DNA of 22,319 nt from a virus. The position numbers and the translations under genes are program-made. Below the pieces are notes generated by a model. That model saw only the letters and a program-made list of their open reading frames with translations. It was not told where the DNA came from and ran no database searches. Every line of letters begins with the position of its first letter. Position 1 is the stretch's first letter. Below, piece after piece: positions 3,339-14,665 of this stretch. Where the stretch lies: the IMG/VR virus record IMGVR_UViG_3300045988_130630, one strand, 5' to 3'.

Positions 3339-4118
3339 TTATATGTTTTTCCATTCATCATCAGTGTATAAATTTATAATTTTTTTTGTATTAGGTAAAT
3401 TATAAGAAATACACCATTTTCTAATGGAATTATCACTTACATGATATATATTCGCGATAGAAGTAAAACTTTTATTACGAATCAATTTTTTTAATTCATC
3501 ACGAGAAGGTCTTTCAATTTTTCGATGTTCTTTAGCAGAACATTTCTAACATTTTTGACCTTTTCCGCTCCACTCTCCACCACATATAGGACAAACTTTT
3601 TTTAAAAGTTTTTTCTCTTCTTCTGGTTTATTTTTATCAAAACGAGAATAATGTAAAGGATAATTTAATTTTTCATTAAACCAAGTTCTTCCAACATTTA
3701 TATCTCTAATAGTATCTTTACTAACTTTATATTTTTTAGCTAATTCCGAATGATTAACTACACCTAACTTATCATTAATTAAAATATTTTGAATATCTTG
3801 AACTTCCTAATAATTTAATTTTTGATAAATTACGCGATAATCTCCACCTATTGTCTAATTATACTCTGGTTTATAATAATCAATCCAATAAATTTCTCTA
3901 CTATTTAGATTATCAATTTCACATTCTTCTAACACTTCAAATATAAAATTAGAAACACCATATTTTCTGAAACTTTGATATAAGGGATAATTATAGCTTT
4001 TACTCTTTTCATCTTGGGAACTATATATATGATTTTCCCAACGTTCTGCTATATTTCTTGACTATCCAATATAACAATGATTATTTATTTTATTAGTAAT
4101 TTTATAAATTCCTATCAT
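3339..4118 (-). CDS. GIY-YIG free-standing homing endonuclease carrying 4 in-frame TAG codons (at 4062, 3855, 3807, 3546)
   Basis: RBS AAGGAG + ATG at 4118; N-terminus GIYKITNKINNHCYIG-TAG-SRNIAERWENH matches the GIY-YIG motif; C-terminal CPICGG...KC-TAG-KC zinc finger; single coherent frame ending in TAA at 3339. Confidence 0.8.
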
Positions 4119-4201
4119 ATTACCATCTCCTTACACTATAATTAAAATTTTATTTAAGATAATTATAATTTTTCGACCTCGAAAGTATTTAGGTGATGAT
4201 A

Positions 4202-4274
4202 TGGTTGCGGTCGGGCGATTCGAACGCCGTTTTTGGCTTATGAGGCCAACGAGCTACCTTTGCTCCACCCCCGC
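4202..4274 (-). tRNA. tRNA with anticodon CAT (Met or Ile2), CCA encoded
   Basis: D-arm GAGC-AAAGGTA-GCTC, anticodon arm TTGGC-CTCATAA-GCCAA, T-loop TTCGAAT; acceptor stem has mismatches. Confidence 0.6.
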
Positions 4275-4276
4275 AA

Positions 4277-4352
4277 TGGTCGGTCAAATTAGAATCGAAC
4301 TAATATCCCTTGTCTTATGAGAACAATGCTCTGCCAATTAAGCTATTGACCG
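4277..4352 (-). tRNA. tRNA with anticodon CAT (Met or Ile2), CCA encoded
   Basis: Acceptor CGGTCAA/TTGACCG, D-arm GCTT-AATTGGCA-GAGC, anticodon arm TTGTT-CTCATAA-GACAA, T-arm ATTAG-TTCGATT-CTAAT. Confidence 0.8.
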
Positions 4353-4512
4353 AAAATGGGATAGATATAATATTCGCGACCATTATATCTATTGGACTTT
4401 CTAACCCATCGTCCCAAAATTCTTAATAGACCTCATCAAATGGCCAACTTTTGTAGAGGCTTTTGTGCGACCACCTGCGCACTTACATAGACATAAGAAT
4501 GATGCCAACGTA

Positions 4513-11390: not shown

Positions 11391-11402
11391 ATCTAATTCT
11401 CC

Positions 11403-12857
11403 TTAACTAAAATTATGTATAAAGTCTTTTAAAGACCTAAAATTATTAACTTTTTCTTCACCAGCATCTCTAAAGCACCAAGGACATAAATACATATCAG
11501 TCCCTTTATGATAGTGAATATCTTCTGTATAATATAAATTATTACAACATTCGCATCGTTTACAATAAGTATCCGCACAACTATCGCAAACTAATTCATT
11601 CTCATCGCCTACGGAATTTGCTTCATCAAGGATTATACGAGAACCGCAACAAGCGCAATAACCATAGTTATCGTCTTCGTTTACTCCATAACTGAATTCA
11701 CAATCTCCGCATCGCATATATTCTCCACTTTCGATTACAGTTTTACCACATTGTAAACAAGGAACATCGCCACCAATAGACCAATGAGGAAGATCAGTCT
11801 CCAATGGATAATAATACAATTTTAAACTGTAAATGGGCAAATAGCAAGAAGAATAAAGCAAATCATTATATTGAAGAGTATGCTCGCCAATATCTCCAAC
11901 AATATCACCAATAGGATATAAACGAGATAAAATAGGAATCCATGTTTCGGATAGTCCAATAATCTCTTCATTCCCAAAATGAGAACTACCCATCCTATTA
12001 GGGACAGTGTTAATACCTCCGTCTACCCAATCACGCAACTGAAAAGTCTTATCAAAAGTATTGATAATATCTTTAATCTTAATTAAAGCATTAGTTGTCA
12101 TAAAAGGATATTGGCGACCAGCCATCAAACCGCGTCGTTTATCTTCCATATAAAGAAGCATACGCCATTTCTTAGAATTCCAAAGAACGTCTTCAGGGAA
12201 ATGCGGAAGTTTCTGGTTCTCCGCTCCGCGCAAATAACAAATAAAAGTGCTTCTATCTACCATATAAGATAAATTTCCTGCCCTATATTCACCATCAAGC
12301 GCGTGGCAAGAGCGCCAATTATAAGTATTTTCACTCACGCTCAGAAAATCTAAAGGATGAACTGAGAAACATAATGTTCCTTCAATCTTATCCTCTTGGA
12401 TAATACGACTTGCGTAGTTTTGAATATCTTCCAAAGAGCGCGGATTCTCTTCAAAATACTTAAAAGCCTTAACTAATTTCATTCCTCTTGGAATCTTTTT
12501 ATCCTTATAAAAATAAGTATCTATAACTGTATTGTCAAAGAATCCTTCTTTATTTACTGAAATAAAATCTTTTAAGTCTTCATTATTATAAGTATAATTA
12601 ATTGTTTCAAGAAACTCCTCAAGACGATGTTCTTTGGTTTTATCATCTAAGGAAAAAGATACCTTTTCCGGCCATTCATAAATTAAATGACCGTGGAAAA
12701 ATTTAATTAAGTCTTTTTTGGCTTCGAGGAACCTTTCGAATAGTTCTTCTGTTTTTGGATTACTGATTCCTTGGGAGTAACTGATGACTTTGTTGAACTG
12801 TTCTCTAATGCTTTCGATGTCGAAGTCATATGACATTTGACTAATCCTCCAATACAA
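11403..12857 (-). CDS. Large hypothetical protein with a conserved SVHPLD core and a C-terminal multi-CxxC zinc-ribbon cluster; paralog of 15343-16947
   Basis: 484-aa ORF. A stronger RBS (GGAGG) precedes the internal ATG at 12836, so the true start may be 12836. Confidence 0.8.
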   Translation of the reverse strand: MYWRISQMSYDFDIESIREQFNKVISYSQGISNPKTEELFERFLEAKKDLIKFFHGHLIYEWPEKVSFSLDDKTKEHRLEEFLETINYTYNNEDLKDFISVNKEGFFDNTVIDTYFYKDKKIPRGMKLVKAFKYFEENPRSLEDIQNYASRIIQEDKIEGTLCFSVHPLDFLSVSENTYNWRSCHALDGEYRAGNLSYMVDRSTFICYLRGAENQKLPHFPEDVLWNSKKWRMLLYMEDKRRGLMAGRQYPFMTTNALIKIKDIINTFDKTFQLRDWVDGGINTVPNRMGSSHFGNEEIIGLSETWIPILSRLYPIGDIVGDIGEHTLQYNDLLYSSCYLPIYSLKLYYYPLETDLPHWSIGGDVPCLQCGKTVIESGEYMRCGDCEFSYGVNEDDNYGYCACCGSRIILDEANSVGDENELVCDSCADTYCKRCECCNNLYYTEDIHYHKGTDMYLCPWCFRDAGEEKVNNFRSLKDFIHNFS

Positions 12858-13813
12858 TCTTTACAATACTCGCTGTGTGGGTTCGCAGGGTCAATTTCAA
12901 ATGCCTCTTCACACTCCGCACACCATTCAACATTACTGGGAATACAATCAGGACAATAAAAACATGTATGTCCATCTAATCCCTTTACTGGAAATGTTTC
13001 ATACTCACTGAATAACTGACCGCATCCTCTACAATGAACGTAGAATCCATCGCCATCAGTTGGAAAATTCTTACAAATATTATCAAACCAAATGTTATGA
13101 TAATTACGATAATACTCAAAATTAGGGATATCTTTCTCTTGGAGCATGCGGATTACCTTATTAATCGTATCAAAAAGAGCACCCGCATTTAATGTTTCAA
13201 CATGACTATGTTCATTCTTGTATCCAACTGAAAGATTTACACCACAAATTTTCCATTCAGGACATAAAACACTAATATCACTAAACGTGCCAAAATCCTC
13301 TACAAATCCAAAAGATTCAATGTAATCAATGAATTTAGGATTGTAAAGGTCATAAAATACACAATCATTTGTGCCTTGTCTATCCAACTGAATAATATAT
13401 TTCAGATCAGGAAATGGACACTCAAAATATTGTAATACTAATGCTTCGGCGCCTAATCCACCAATTTCTTCATCAGTGGTAAAAATAATAGAAGGGCGCA
13501 AAGATGTATTCCTCAAAATATGAAGAATTGCATATACTCCTGCTCTATCATCTGCGCCAAGGCCTTCAGGCGACCAAAGCACATTTTTTCTTGTATCATA
13601 ATATAAATCTTTGACCGGTTTCTCAAATACGGTATCAAGATGAGCCACTAAAGCAATCGGAATATCACCAACTGCACAAACATACTCTTTAGTAATAACT
13701 ACTTCAGAATATTTAGATTTTAATACATCGGTAACATATTCCCTTAACTCGTCTTGTGTCGAGCGAACCAGATATTCAAATAACCAAAGTTCATTAGTTT
13801 TAAAACCTCTCAC
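12707..13813 (-). CDS. M20/M28/M42-family metallopeptidase-like protein with a C-terminal Cys-rich zinc ribbon
   Basis: GTG start with RBS AGGAG; motifs HLDTV, GADDRAGV and TTDEEIGGLGA match the HxD / GAxDxK / EE metal-binding signature; the 3' end overlaps the next gene by about 130 nt. Confidence 0.75.
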   Translation of the reverse strand: MRGFKTNELWLFEYLVRSTQDELREYVTDVLKSKYSEVVITKEYVCAVGDIPIALVAHLDTVFEKPVKDLYYDTRKNVLWSPEGLGADDRAGVYAILHILRNTSLRPSIIFTTDEEIGGLGAEALVLQYFECPFPDLKYIIQLDRQGTNDCVFYDLYNPKFIDYIESFGFVEDFGTFSDISVLCPEWKICGVNLSVGYKNEHSHVETLNAGALFDTINKVIRMLQEKDIPNFEYYRNYHNIWFDNICKNFPTDGDGFYVHCRGCGQLFSEYETFPVKGLDGHTCFYCPDCIPSNVEWCAECEEAFEIDPANPHSEYCKDCIGGLVKCHMTSTSKALENSSTKSSVTPKESVIQKQKNYSKGSSKPKKT

Positions 13814-13846
13814 AGTTTATTCTCCTATCTTTTATCTTATATTTAT

Positions 13847-13875
13847 ATTATAACATTATTTTTTTTATTTGTCAA
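13847..13875 (-). promoter_or_regulatory. Sigma70 consensus promoter TTGACA-N17-TATAAT
   Basis: -35 rc of 13870-13875, -10 rc of 13847-13852. Confidence 0.7.
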
Positions 13876-14665
13876 TTGAGTCCTCTTCCGCCTCGGAGAT
13901 AGGATTATTCTGCTTACTTGCTTGAACGGCTTTATCTATAACACGAGAGAATATAAATGCAGTTTCACAATAATGACATGTCCCTTGTCGTTGACAGCGC
14001 TGACCGCAATTGATGCGGTTGGGGCCAAAATCTTCGGGGATTCCACGATTATCTGCATTATAATTTAAATTAGTTAATAAAAGGTTTAGATTACCTTGCC
14101 AATGACCACTTTGATAGATATCCAAAAGCACAGCTTCTTTGGAGAGCGCGGGCTCGTCGAATTCTAAAGTTGAAACATATGTTCCATAATAATCTACATC
14201 TTCCGGTCGGACGTAGGAACCGCATATTCCATTTTCTCTTGGAAGATTATCGTCATAGCATTTATTCGCAATCATACGAATTGGGACTTTTGCTTGCTGA
14301 TTTAATTGTCTCAAATCAAATGTAAGCGGTGCTCCGATGAAAAGTTCGCTAACTCCAAGATCAAGGAGAACGCGGACTTCTGCCCATGTAGTAGCAGGAT
14401 AAGCGAAATAATATTTTACATCAATATTACATCCATTACGAGTAAGCATATCTTCAAATGCTATAATAAGATCGACTTTATCCTTAAATGAATCAATCTC
14501 TTCCCAATTCACTTCTTCATCTTTGCGGATTCTGATAATATATCGCTTATTGGGGAATTTCTAAATCATATCATACATAATGTTTATATCGTTATAATTA
14601 ACCATAAGCTCGTCAGCTTTCTCGCGGACAACATCAGGTTGACGCACAGAAACACAATATTTCAA
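13865..14665 (-). CDS. Hypothetical protein; long model starts at TTG 14665 and contains one in-frame TAG at 14561; short model starts at GTG 14512
   Basis: Strong RBS AAAGGAG 9 nt before the TTG at 14665, directly downstream of a perfect promoter; the frame is continuous with ORF 13865..14512 through the single TAG; no comparable RBS before the GTG at 14512. Confidence 0.65.

What the first reader, a model, noticed from the sequence alone, without database searches (positions are those of the whole stretch)
3339..14665. TAG is a sense codon in a defined subset of genes (amber recoding)
Six minus-strand genes contain in-frame TAG codons, 21 in total, and no in-frame TAA or TGA.

- GIY-YIG endonuclease, 3339-4118: 4 TAGs.
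- HNH endonuclease, 6941-7426: 3 TAGs.
- Tail-fibre-like paralog A, 7694-9001: 3 TAGs.
- Tail-fibre-like paralog B, 8983-10395: 6 TAGs.
- Late gene 10412-10966: 4 TAGs.
- Early gene 13865-14665: 1 TAG.

Each begins at a strong Shine-Dalgarno site. Each translates into one coherent protein across the TAGs, with catalytic motifs of the endonucleases on both sides of a TAG. Each ends at TAA. The standard-code ORF caller instead breaks the 7.7-10.4 kb region into short fragments.

About 20 other genes in the window have no TAG at all and stop at TAA or TGA; TGA stops occur at 6600 and 18428. This matches stop-codon-recoded phages, where late genes use a reassigned TAG and early genes avoid it. None of the roughly 16 tRNAs folded here has a CUA anticodon, so a suppressor must be elsewhere on the genome.
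Basis: partly seen in the sequence, partly recalled or inferred. Interest (0 to 1): 0.92.

Follow-up and report, generated by a model that had tools for sequence, protein, structure and literature searches.

The report
Phage reads TAG stop as glutamine
This is a piece of a roughly 193-kb gut phage that uses the TAG stop codon as an amino-acid codon (most likely glutamine) in a subset of its genes, with its own suppressor tRNA lying just outside the window; the effect is real, but it is a well-described phage trick.

Summary
Six minus-strand genes carry 21 in-frame TAGs and no TAA or TGA, which composition alone would give with P of about 1e-6 to 1e-11 per gene. Twenty other genes have 0 TAG in 3,504 codons. 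No gene here or in related genomes ends at TAG.

Family profiles and full-length homologues run across the TAGs, including homologues from cultured standard-code phages. At conserved columns TAG aligns with glutamine encoded by CAA or CAG.

The window is 100% identical to a 25-kb gut-metagenome scaffold and 99.8-100% identical to a 193,261-nt contig. That contig has a canonical tRNA with a CUA anticodon about 4.45 kb beyond window position 1, in the same tRNA array.

So this is a code-15 (TAG to Gln) phage, distantly Herelleviridae-like. The early/late timing remains an inference.

The multi-TAG genes form a separate codon-usage class: homing endonucleases and glycine-rich or fibre-like proteins here, and a lysin in relatives.

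Side findings:
- Three unrelated suppressor-tRNA bodies occupy the same locus in near-identical genomes.
- One tRNA has a 6-nt anticodon loop.

Novelty is low: a new member of a known kind.

The parts
3339..4118 (-). GIY-YIG homing endonuclease, 259 aa, 4 in-frame TAG (codons 19, 88, 104, 191), TAA stop
   Evidence: Searches give the frame and TAG positions. PF01541 matches at 2e-9 and phrog_7168 at 3e-34, spanning residues 1-234. 'YIG[TAG]S' aligns with Q (CAA) in the two closest Enterococcus phage homologues. All TAGs are kept in strains at 97.6-100% identity.
6941..7426 (-). HNH homing endonuclease, 161 aa, 3 in-frame TAG (codons 50, 124, 146), TAA stop
   Evidence: phrog_10822 matches at 1e-54, spanning residues 6-156. 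'CPNCHS[TAG]T' aligns with Q in 106 of 120 homologues. It aligns with CAA/CAG in 4 of 4 cultured phages, from Staphylococcus, Pseudomonas, Enterococcus and Rhodococcus hosts.
7694..9001 (-). Glycine-rich-domain protein, paralogue A, 435 aa, 3 in-frame TAG
   Evidence: PF12810 ALK_LTK_GRD matches at 1e-35 over residues 32-285, across the TAG at codon 48. It is 38% identical to paralogue B over 270 aa, E = 7e-39.
8983..10395 (-). Glycine-rich-domain protein, paralogue B, 470 aa, 6 in-frame TAG including three within five codons (TAG ATT TAG AAA TAG)
   Evidence: PF12810 matches at 4e-35 over residues 205-432. 'GG[TAG]GS' aligns with Q (CAA) in paralogue A. 'KAT[TAG]TK' aligns with CAA in two relatives and TAG in a third. 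More than 80 strain variants are all about 470 aa long.
10412..10966 (-). 184-aa protein of unknown function, 4 in-frame TAG
   Evidence: There is no Pfam or PHROG match. Homologues of 182-206 aa, 49-52% identical, align over the full length. 'GDIWI[TAG]Y' aligns with Q in 3 of 3.
13865..14665 (-). 266-aa protein of unknown function, TTG start, 1 in-frame TAG at codon 35
   Evidence: The N-terminus MKYCVS.RQP...ADE upstream of the TAG is conserved in about 45 of the 70 homologues. Between strains, changed codons before the TAG are 3-4 synonymous and 0 nonsynonymous; after it they are 28-37 synonymous and 4-6 nonsynonymous. The TAG is kept in 6 fetched loci from 5 contigs, four of them only 94-95% identical.
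14690..14718 (-). Perfect sigma-70-type promoter (TTGACA-17-TATAAT) in front of the one-TAG gene
   Evidence: It is one of six 12/12 matches in the window, all on the coding strand (19161, 14718, 13875, 7686, 6603, 5139).
394..7615 (-). tRNA array (16 tRNA genes) interleaved with the two homing endonucleases; it has no CUA anticodon inside the window and continues beyond position 1 to the suppressor
   Evidence: In L001 the array continues Ile, Val, tRNA(CUA), Tyr.
7545..7615 (-). tRNA-like gene with a 6-nt anticodon loop (CUUCAA)
   Evidence: Rfam tRNA scores 46.2 bits with one loop position deleted. ARAGORN labels it '?(Glu|SeC)(tc)'. It is 71/71 identical in L002 and lies 43 nt downstream of a perfect promoter.
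11085..22279 (-). Block of 18 TAG-free genes (plus the one-TAG gene) with higher GC3
   Evidence: GC3 is 0.25-0.53, against 0.09-0.16 in the multi-TAG genes.
216..371 (-). Candidate seventh TAG-containing gene, 51 codons, 3 TAG
   Evidence: It is called in public records of four contigs and ends at TAA. There is no independent support.

Best explanation
The window comes from a roughly 193-kb tailed phage of the human gut, distantly related to Herelleviridae, in which TAG has been reassigned from stop to sense.

**What is shown.** A phage-encoded tRNA with anticodon CUA sits in the same tRNA array, about 4.45 kb past the window edge. It is expected to read TAG, most likely as glutamine (genetic code 15). 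TAG is never used to terminate a gene. It is used as a codon only in a subset of genes:
- homing endonucleases;
- glycine-rich or fibre-like proteins;
- in the flanking DNA of relatives, a lysin-like protein and a tail-fibre module.

The multi-TAG genes also share a distinct AT3-rich codon usage. Genes that avoid TAG can be translated by an unmodified host.

**What is inferred.** TAG-containing genes give full-length protein only once the suppressor tRNA is present. Recoding would therefore act as a translational gate on those genes.

**Status of each step.**
- Shown: TAG is in frame in real, conserved genes; a CUA tRNA exists; TAG is not a terminator.
- Well supported: the amino acid is Gln.
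- Inferred only: the timing or gating role, and how host RF1 is outcompeted.
For: **In-frame TAG in real genes.**
- 21 in-frame TAGs with no TAA/TGA.
- Family profiles and full-length homologues span the TAGs.
- Substitutions between strains are mostly synonymous on both sides of a TAG.
- The TAGs are identical in independent assemblies.

**TAG is not a stop.** None of 79 gene calls in three related loci ends at TAG, nor does any gene in the window.

**Suppressor tRNA.**
- tRNA(CUA) lies at L001 16241-16313. Rfam scores it 49.8 bits, with a 7-nt loop CUCUAAA, a GG D-loop and a TTCGA T-loop.
- It is present in all six relatives whose fetched DNA covers the locus.
- The window is 100% identical to L004 and 99.8-100% identical to L001.

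**Glutamine.**
- The HNH motif CHS-Q-T is CAA/CAG in 4 of 4 cultured phages and Q in 106 of 120 homologues.
- GIY-YIG 'YIGQS' is CAA in the two closest homologues.
- TAG and CAA interchange at conserved columns of the glycine-rich (GRD) proteins.
- The 184-aa protein's 'WIQY' column is Q in 3 of 3 homologues.
- The suppressors share a 1:72 mismatch and G73, the acceptor features known (my knowledge: E. coli GlnRS identity; su+7 and supF mischarging work) to favour Gln.

**A defined subset.**
- 0 TAG in 3,504 codons of the other genes, P = 6e-19.
- Multi-TAG genes have GC3 of 0.09-0.16, against 0.17 or more in the rest.
- Flanking tail-fibre and lysin genes of relatives are TAG-rich, while metabolic or early-like blocks are TAG-free.

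**Literature.** The same pattern is described by Borges et al. (10.1101/2021.08.26.457843).
Against: - There are no expression or protein data.
- The suppressor is not in the window, nor on the 25-kb scaffold that matches it 100%. It is on a near-identical longer contig.
- The Gln assignment rests on about seven constrained columns. The other 14 TAG columns are variable.
- In two more distant relatives, a TAG sits at an invariant Trp column of the GRD protein.
- The CAG depletion I first took as support for Gln is part of a general avoidance of G-ending codons.
- TAG-bearing genes are not simply 'late structural'. Homing endonucleases, an HTH-like protein in relatives, and a gene with a consensus host promoter also carry TAG.
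- The tRNA block holding the suppressor is itself preceded by a consensus host-type promoter, so any delay is not explained.
- RF1/RF2 and aminoacyl-tRNA synthetase genes were not searched for.
Confidence: 0.88

Rival explanations
1. TAG is a sense codon but is read as something other than glutamine, for example tryptophan or a Gln/Trp mixture. A Trp-derived amber suppressor behaves this way in E. coli (su+7).
For: - The suppressor anticodon loop CUCUAAA equals the tRNA-Trp loop CUCCAAA with C35 changed to U.
- G73 and a weak 1:72 pair are shared by the phage's own tRNA-Trp and tRNA-Gln.
- In relatives L027 and L025, TAG occupies invariant Trp columns of the GRD protein.
- One TAG in paralogue A aligns mainly with Tyr (74 Y, 35 Q, 5 W).
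Against: - In the window's own genes, no TAG lies at a conserved Trp column.
- The constrained columns give Q: HNH 106/120 with no W, GRD column 524 with 32 of 33 distant homologues, the 184-aa protein 3/3, and GIY-YIG in the two closest homologues.
- TAG and CAA interchange between relatives.
Confidence: 0.1
2. The six genes are decaying pseudogenes, or assembly or sequencing errors, and the TAGs are true stops.
For: Homing endonucleases are often degraded. Standard-code callers fragment them.
Against: - Only TAG interrupts the frames; 12-25 TAA/TGA are expected per gene and none is seen.
- The TAGs are identical in independent assemblies from different samples.
- Purifying selection acts on both sides of the TAGs.
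- The genes keep intact starts and TAA stops, and a cognate CUA tRNA is present.
Confidence: 0.01
3. The host itself reads TAG as sense, and the phage merely mirrors its host's code.
For: The host is unknown. Code-25 phages mirror their code-25 hosts (Borges et al.).
Against: - In code-25 phages that match their code-25 hosts, about 90% of genes carry the recoded codon.
- Here about 21% of genes in the window do, and 20 genes have none (P = 6e-19).
- The phage carries its own suppressor.
- The nearest cultured relatives infect standard-code Firmicutes.
- To my knowledge no bacterial lineage with TAG reassigned to Gln is known.
Confidence: 0.03
4. TAG is only a leaky stop. Low-efficiency read-through deliberately keeps these proteins scarce, rather than TAG being a full reassignment with a timing role.
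For: - Homing endonucleases, which are toxic if abundant, are consistently TAG-loaded.
- Host RF1 presumably still competes.
- TAG is used far more than other G-ending codons in these genes. For Gln the counts are CAA 30, CAG 4 and TAG 21, suggesting selection for TAG itself.
Against: - Six TAGs, including three within five codons, would give almost no product in a large virion-type protein unless suppression were efficient.
- TAG is never used as a terminator, which suggests termination at TAG is unreliable in infected cells.
Confidence: 0.12

Closest known systems
TAG-recoded gut phage clades of Borges et al. 2021/2022 (10.1101/2021.08.26.457843), especially Sapphire (201 +/- 22 kb) and Jade (210 +/- 35 kb), which infect Firmicutes
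   Same: - Genome size of about 185-197 kb.
- Firmicutes-phage affinities.
- TAG read as Gln, with a phage suppressor tRNA.
- Only a minority of genes are recoded: about 21% here, against a 26% mean for Sapphire.
- Recoded modules are scattered across the genome.
- Recoded homing endonuclease, tail and lysis genes.
   Different: Clade membership could not be tested, because no terminase or reference sequences were available. No release factor or synthetase was looked for.
crAss-like phages and Lak phages using genetic code 15 (Peters et al. 2022, PMC9523058: TAG read as Gln confirmed by metaproteomics)
   Same: TAG is reassigned to Gln, there is a suppressor tRNA(CUA), and recoding is concentrated in late, structural and lysis genes.
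   Different: They have different hosts (Bacteroidetes), different genome sizes (about 100 kb and about 550 kb) and no sequence relationship. The phage here is Herelleviridae-like: its ATPase is 42% identical to those of Enterococcus and Bacillus phages.
phAss-1 / 'Phassvirus' group (Babkin et al. 2023, PMC10607447)
   Same: It is a human-gut phage with in-frame TAG in many ORFs and its own suppressor tRNA genes.
   Different: It is 136 kb and has three suppressor tRNA genes. A megablast of the whole window against GenBank phages found no DNA similarity.
Classical E. coli amber suppressors supE (tRNA-Gln CUA) and su+7 (tRNA-Trp CUA, charged mainly with Gln)
   Same: They carry a CUA anticodon in an otherwise ordinary cloverleaf, with G73 and a weak or absent 1:72 pair as Gln-favouring acceptor features (my knowledge of the literature; structures).
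   Different: Those are point mutants of host tRNAs with partial suppression. Here the tRNA is a dedicated phage gene, and TAG has disappeared as a terminator.

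Membership tests
Stop-codon-recoded phage, genetic code 15 (TAG to Gln) | In-frame TAG in genes whose homologues continue across the TAG position | tested here: met
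   Profiles and full-length homologues span the TAGs in all six genes.
Stop-codon-recoded phage, genetic code 15 (TAG to Gln) | TAG is not used as a terminator | tested here: met
   None of about 27 genes in the window and none of 79 gene calls in L001, L002 and L007 ends at TAG. All end at TAA or TGA.
Stop-codon-recoded phage, genetic code 15 (TAG to Gln) | Phage-encoded suppressor tRNA with anticodon CUA | tested here: met
   There is none in the window. One is present about 4.45 kb beyond position 1 in a 99.8-100% identical contig and in six further relatives.
Stop-codon-recoded phage, genetic code 15 (TAG to Gln) | TAG aligns with glutamine at conserved columns of standard-code homologues | tested here: met
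   The HNH column is CAA/CAG in 4 of 4 cultured phages and Q in 106 of 120 homologues. The GIY-YIG column is CAA in the 2 closest homologues. TAG and CAA interchange in the GRD proteins. Only about 7 of the 21 columns are constrained.
Stop-codon-recoded phage, genetic code 15 (TAG to Gln) | Recoded codon concentrated in late, structural or lysis genes and avoided in early genes | tested here: inconclusive
   TAG-rich genes include fibre-like, lysin-like and homing-endonuclease genes. Many small or metabolic genes are TAG-free, and the two sets differ in codon usage. Core structural genes were not reached, there are no expression data, and exceptions exist.
Stop-codon-recoded phage, genetic code 15 (TAG to Gln) | Host uses the standard code | not testable with these tools
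   The host is unknown. The nearest cultured relatives infect Enterococcus, Bacillus and Staphylococcus.
Stop-codon-recoded phage, genetic code 15 (TAG to Gln) | Accessory code-change genes (RF2, synthetase); optional, found only in some clades | not tested
   Only about 75 kb of the roughly 193-kb genome type was read, and none was seen there.
Sapphire or Jade clade (Borges et al.) | Placement in the large-terminase phylogeny | not tested
Pyrrolysine decoding of TAG | tRNA-Pyl architecture (short D-loop without GG, 3-nt variable loop, elongated anticodon stem) and pylSBCD genes | tested here: not met
   ARAGORN's 'Pyl' label reflects only the anticodon. The tRNA has a GG D-loop, a TTCGA T-loop, a 5-bp anticodon stem and a 5-nt variable loop. 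No pyl genes were seen in the DNA read.
Herelleviridae | Shared hallmark genes (capsid, sheath, terminase, polymerase) with SPO1-like phages | not tested
   The only evidence is an AAA ATPase (phrog_2376, 7e-103) with 42-43% identity to Enterococcus EF24C and Bacillus Deep Blue.

The most novel reading that the evidence does not exclude
The suppressor-tRNA gene is a swappable cassette. At one fixed locus, genomes that are 95-100% identical in the flanks carry three unrelated tRNA bodies (44-60% identity). One of them has a long, class-II-type variable arm. All three keep only the CUCUAAA anticodon loop, a mismatched 1:72 pair and G73.

If this reflects selection, for example escape from host tRNA-targeting defences or matching to different host synthetases, then the code-switch device is itself under an arms race. 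The residue inserted at TAG might even differ between strains of one phage species.
Probability: 0.2. Interest if true: 0.55.

Novelty: new member of a known kind. Interest (0 to 1): 0.25.

Why it matters
It matters mainly for annotation. With table 11, about a fifth of the genes here are shattered or lost, including the probable receptor-binding proteins, the lysin and the homing endonucleases. The region has to be called with TAG as sense.

Biologically it adds a clean, well-sampled example of partial amber recoding in a Firmicutes-type large phage, represented here by more than 20 public contigs of about 160-200 kb. Two useful handles come with it:
- the TAG-using genes are also a separate codon-usage class;
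- the suppressor tRNA locus is polymorphic between near-identical genomes.

It does not change what is known about how recoded phages work.

Tried and rejected
- **CAG depletion as evidence for CAG-to-TAG replacement.** The TAG genes have CAA 30, CAG 4 and TAG 21, against CAA 32 and CAG 49 in the others. I rejected this: most G-ending codons tested (AAG, GAG, TTG, TCG, CCG and others) are depleted to a similar degree in the TAG genes.
- **Megablast of the whole window against GenBank phages.** No match.
I used the TAG-free N-terminal 93 aa instead.
- **A shared late-promoter motif upstream of the multi-TAG genes.** Nothing was evident by eye.
- **Walking the genome in IMG/VR.** Four scans added about 34 kb, but I did not reach the capsid, terminase or portal genes, or any release-factor gene.
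- **Pyrrolysine reading of the ARAGORN 'tRNA-Pyl' label.** Rejected on tRNA architecture.
- **'tRNA-SeC(tca)' calls inside the Flg_new gene of L021 and L022.** Treated as spurious because they lie within a coding frame.
- **'Far' GRD homologues as independent standard-code witnesses for Q.** This failed. All three whose DNA I fetched are themselves TAG-recoded, so I counted only their CAA codons.

Full report
**1. The observation.**

Translating the six minus-strand intervals gives exactly the TAG counts reported (4, 3, 3, 6, 4 and 1; 21 in all). There is no in-frame TAA or TGA, and each interval ends at TAA.

This is far beyond chance:
- From each gene's own composition, 11.6-25 TAA/TGA codons are expected per frame. 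The probability of none is 2e-6 to 7e-12.
- The two other frames of the same genes hold 67 and 170 TAA/TGA.
- Five genes start at ATG behind AGGAG/GGAGG. The sixth starts at TTG 14665 behind AAGGAG.
- The standard-code ORF list shatters 7.7-10.4 kb into pieces of 41-188 aa.
- Twenty other genes contain no TAG in 3,504 codons. At the rate of the six genes, 42 would be expected, giving P = 6e-19. They stop at TAA, or at TGA (6600, 18428, 21711).
- ARAGORN finds 16 tRNA genes, none with a CUA anticodon. Rfam confirms 14 of them.

**2. The TAG-containing frames are real genes.**

- **Profile matches run across the TAGs.**
  - GIY-YIG: PF01541, and phrog_7168 over residues 1-234.
  - HNH: phrog_10822 over residues 6-156, E = 1e-54.
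  - ALK/LTK glycine-rich domain: PF12810 at 1e-35 over 32-285 in paralogue A, and 4e-35 over 205-432 in paralogue B.
- **The two glycine-rich proteins are paralogues.** They are 38% identical over 270 residues, E = 7e-39.
- **Cultured standard-code phages have full-length homologues.** HNH homologues cover residues 3-155 of the 161. GIY-YIG homologues reach 41% identity.
- **The 184-aa protein.** It has no family, but a search with only its TAG-free first 93 residues found homologues of 182-206 aa. These align with the read-through product to its last residues.
- **The 266-aa protein.**
- About 45 of the 70 homologues begin MKYCVS.RQP...ADE. The TAG at codon 35 lies inside conserved sequence.
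  - Codon changes in four loci at 94-95% nucleotide identity are 3-4 synonymous and 0 nonsynonymous before the TAG. After it they are 28-37 synonymous and 4-6 nonsynonymous.
- **TAG conservation.** Every TAG is conserved in every related assembly fetched.

**3. Where the window comes from, and the suppressor.**

Exact-protein look-ups place the window in gut-metagenome assemblies:
- It is 100% identical over 11.8 kb to a 25,444-nt scaffold (L004, L011).
- It is 99.8-100% identical to a 193,261-nt contig (ERZ27261577:k99_39008; L012, L001), apart from one 46-nt indel.
- Sister contigs are 185-197 kb.

The public gene calls on these contigs already read through the TAGs, giving products of 470, 435, 184, 161 and 259 aa.

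In L001 the tRNA array continues past the window edge. It contains a tRNA with anticodon CUA at 16241-16313, about 4.45 kb beyond window position 1 on the same strand.
- It scores 49.8 bits against Rfam tRNA.
- It has a normal cloverleaf: a 7-nt loop CUCUAAA, GG in the D-loop, a TTCGA T-loop and a 5-bp anticodon stem.
- ARAGORN's 'Pyl' label therefore reflects only the anticodon.
- A CUA tRNA sits at the same place in L002, L003 and L021-L024.
- None of 79 gene calls in L001, L002 and L007 ends at TAG.

**4. Which amino acid.**

Glutamine fits best:
- **HNH.** The motif CPNCHS-[TAG]-T aligns with Q in 106 of 120 metagenomic homologues. It aligns with CAG or CAA in four of four cultured phages of Staphylococcus, Pseudomonas, Enterococcus and Rhodococcus.
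- **GIY-YIG.** 'YIG-[TAG]-S' is Q (CAA) in the two closest homologues, both Enterococcus phages, and S in two more distant ones.
- **Glycine-rich (GRD) paralogues.** 'GG-[TAG]-GS' in paralogue B is 'GG-Q(CAA)-GS' in paralogue A. At 'KAT-[TAG]-TK' two relatives have CAA and a third has TAG.
- **184-aa protein.** 'GDIWI-[TAG]-Y' is Q in three of three homologues.
- **The remaining 14 columns are variable** (A/K, I/K, L, K, E/T and so on). No other residue recurs.

Two cautions apply:
- The 'far' GRD homologues turned out to be TAG-recoded themselves. Their database 'Q' is circular unless the codon is checked.
- The CAG depletion in the TAG genes is not specific, because nearly all G-ending codons are depleted there.

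The suppressors share a mismatched 1:72 pair and G73. From the classical E. coli literature (my knowledge), these features favour charging of amber suppressors by GlnRS. They are also close to tRNA-Trp features. A Trp or mixed reading is therefore kept as a minor rival, more so because two distant relatives place TAG at invariant Trp columns.

**5. Which genes use TAG.**

- **In the window:** two homing endonucleases inside the tRNA array, the two glycine-rich paralogues, the adjacent 184-aa gene, and a single codon in the 266-aa gene.
- **In the flanks of relatives, TAG occurs in:**
  - a second GIY-YIG gene (5 TAGs);
  - an NAGPA+SPOR lysin-like protein (2);
  - a 678-aa Flg_new-repeat protein (5);
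  - Mtd_N-type fibre proteins and a run of about 12 fibre-like genes, with weak PHROG tail-fibre hits at 1e-6;
  - further homing-endonuclease-like genes and a weakly HTH-like 216-aa protein carrying 8-10 TAGs.
- **TAG-free genes:** the AAA ATPase, the peptidase-like gene, most small genes upstream, and a block with nucleotidyltransferase-like, phosphoesterase-type and Macro-domain-like genes as judged by eye from their sequences (not profile-searched).
- **Codon usage separates the classes**.
  - Multi-TAG genes have GC3 of 0.09-0.16. Their G-ending fraction of the Lys, Glu, Gln and Leu codon pairs is 0-0.09.
  - TAG-free genes have GC3 of 0.17-0.53 and a G-ending fraction of 0.23-0.92.
  - The one-TAG gene falls with the TAG-free class.
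  - Within the TAG genes, TAG (21) far outnumbers CAG (4) despite the avoidance of G-ending codons.
- **Promoters.** Six perfect TTGACA-17-TATAAT promoters lie on the coding strand.
  - One is before the one-TAG gene.
  - One is before the odd tRNA and HNH.
  - A seventh precedes the tRNA block holding the suppressor.
  - No such promoter precedes the 184-aa/GRD-B/GRD-A cluster, which follows a terminator at 11081-11052.

This fits a translational gate on a subset of genes. The timing itself is inferred, not shown.

**6. Comparison with what is known.**

This is the pattern described for recoded gut phages (Borges et al., 10.1101/2021.08.26.457843):
- TAG reads as Gln.
- Suppressor tRNAs are phage-encoded.
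- Recoding is partial. It is concentrated in structural, lysis and homing-endonuclease genes and scattered in modules in the large clades.
- Two Firmicutes-infecting clades have the right size: Jade at 210 +/- 35 kb and Sapphire at 201 +/- 22 kb. Sapphire has a mean of 26% of genes recoded, against about 21% in this window.

TAG to Gln has been confirmed by metaproteomics in crAss-like phages (PMC9523058). Another TAG-recoded gut phage group, phAss-1, has been described (PMC10607447).

By protein similarity the nearest cultured phages are Herelleviridae. The ATPase is 42-43% identical and the HNH 55% identical. GenBank phages contain no DNA-level relative. I could not test membership of a named clade.

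**7. Verdict.**

This is a real and clean case of amber recoding, but the mechanism is already well described and public gene calls already read these genes through. Interest is low to moderate.

The most novel thing seen is outside the finding proper. The suppressor locus carries three unrelated tRNA bodies in near-identical genomes.

Noticed in passing
L001 16241-16313; L002 15247-15319; L003 9954-10043; L021 6082-6154; L022 6071-6160; L023 6309-6381; L024 6666-6737 (about 4.45 kb beyond window position 1): The suppressor tRNA(CUA) locus holds three unrelated tRNA bodies, 44-60% identical to each other. One is 90 nt long with a long variable arm. The flanks of these genomes are 95-100% identical. 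All three keep the CUCUAAA loop, a mismatched 1:72 pair and G73, and none encodes CCA.
   Followed up: partly
window 7545-7615 (-): A tRNA-like gene (Rfam 46 bits) has a 6-nt anticodon loop, CUUCAA, which could be read as either UUC or UCA. It lies 43 nt downstream of a perfect sigma-70 promoter. It is 100% identical in L002 even though the neighbouring genes differ. L024 has another 6-nt-loop tRNA. Its function is unknown.
   Followed up: partly
window 19161-19133, 14718-14690, 13875-13847, 7686-7658, 6603-6575, 5139-5111 (-); L001 14264-14292: Six perfect 12/12 TTGACA-17-TATAAT promoters lie in the window, all on the coding strand. Several sit in front of tRNA blocks. By my estimate, well under one such match would be expected by chance in 20 kb.
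   Followed up: no
window, all genes: There are two sharply separated codon-usage classes. Multi-TAG genes have GC3 of 0.09-0.16 and almost no G-ending Lys, Glu, Gln or Leu codons. TAG-free genes have GC3 of 0.17-0.53. The one-TAG gene 13865-14665 belongs to the TAG-free class.
   Followed up: yes
window 12707-13813 (-): A peptidase-like ORF (phrog_34186, 1e-42; M20/M28-like) has a GTG start, an AGGAG site and a perfect promoter. It is absent from the gene calls of all six fetched loci that cover it, and it overlaps the next gene (start 12836) by 130 nt. This may be a gene-caller overlap limit or something more, such as a frameshift.
   Followed up: partly
L027 6001-7404 (codon 48); L025 6001-8268 (codon 470): In two more distant TAG-recoded relatives, a TAG occupies columns that are Trp in more than 110 of about 120 homologues, including the W of the ECWGA motif. 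Either Trp-to-Gln is tolerated there or TAG is not always read as Gln.
   Followed up: partly
window 8983-10395 (-), residues 235, 177, 423-424, 132, 143: Among 81 strain variants of glycine-rich protein B, a few sites are hypervariable. Residue 235, which is TAG here, is H, Q, R, Y or C elsewhere. The rest of the protein is conserved. This suggests diversifying selection on a receptor-binding-type protein.
   Followed up: partly
L002 698-3141 versus window 7694-10966: In a sister genome the two glycine-rich genes and the 184-aa gene are replaced by a YcaO-domain gene and a 292-aa gene, both TAG-free. Homing endonucleases also differ in number and position between strains.
   Followed up: no
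window 216-371 (-): A 51-codon ORF with 3 in-frame TAGs and a TAA stop is called in public records.
   Followed up: partly
L002 3314-3398: The phage tRNA-Trp(CCA) is 85 nt long with an extra arm in the variable region, which is unusual for tRNA-Trp.
   Followed up: no
L007 816-1466 (-); L053 9848-10498: A 216-aa, weakly HTH-like protein at a divergent gene junction carries 8-10 TAGs (about 4-5% of codons). This is the highest TAG density seen.
   Followed up: partly
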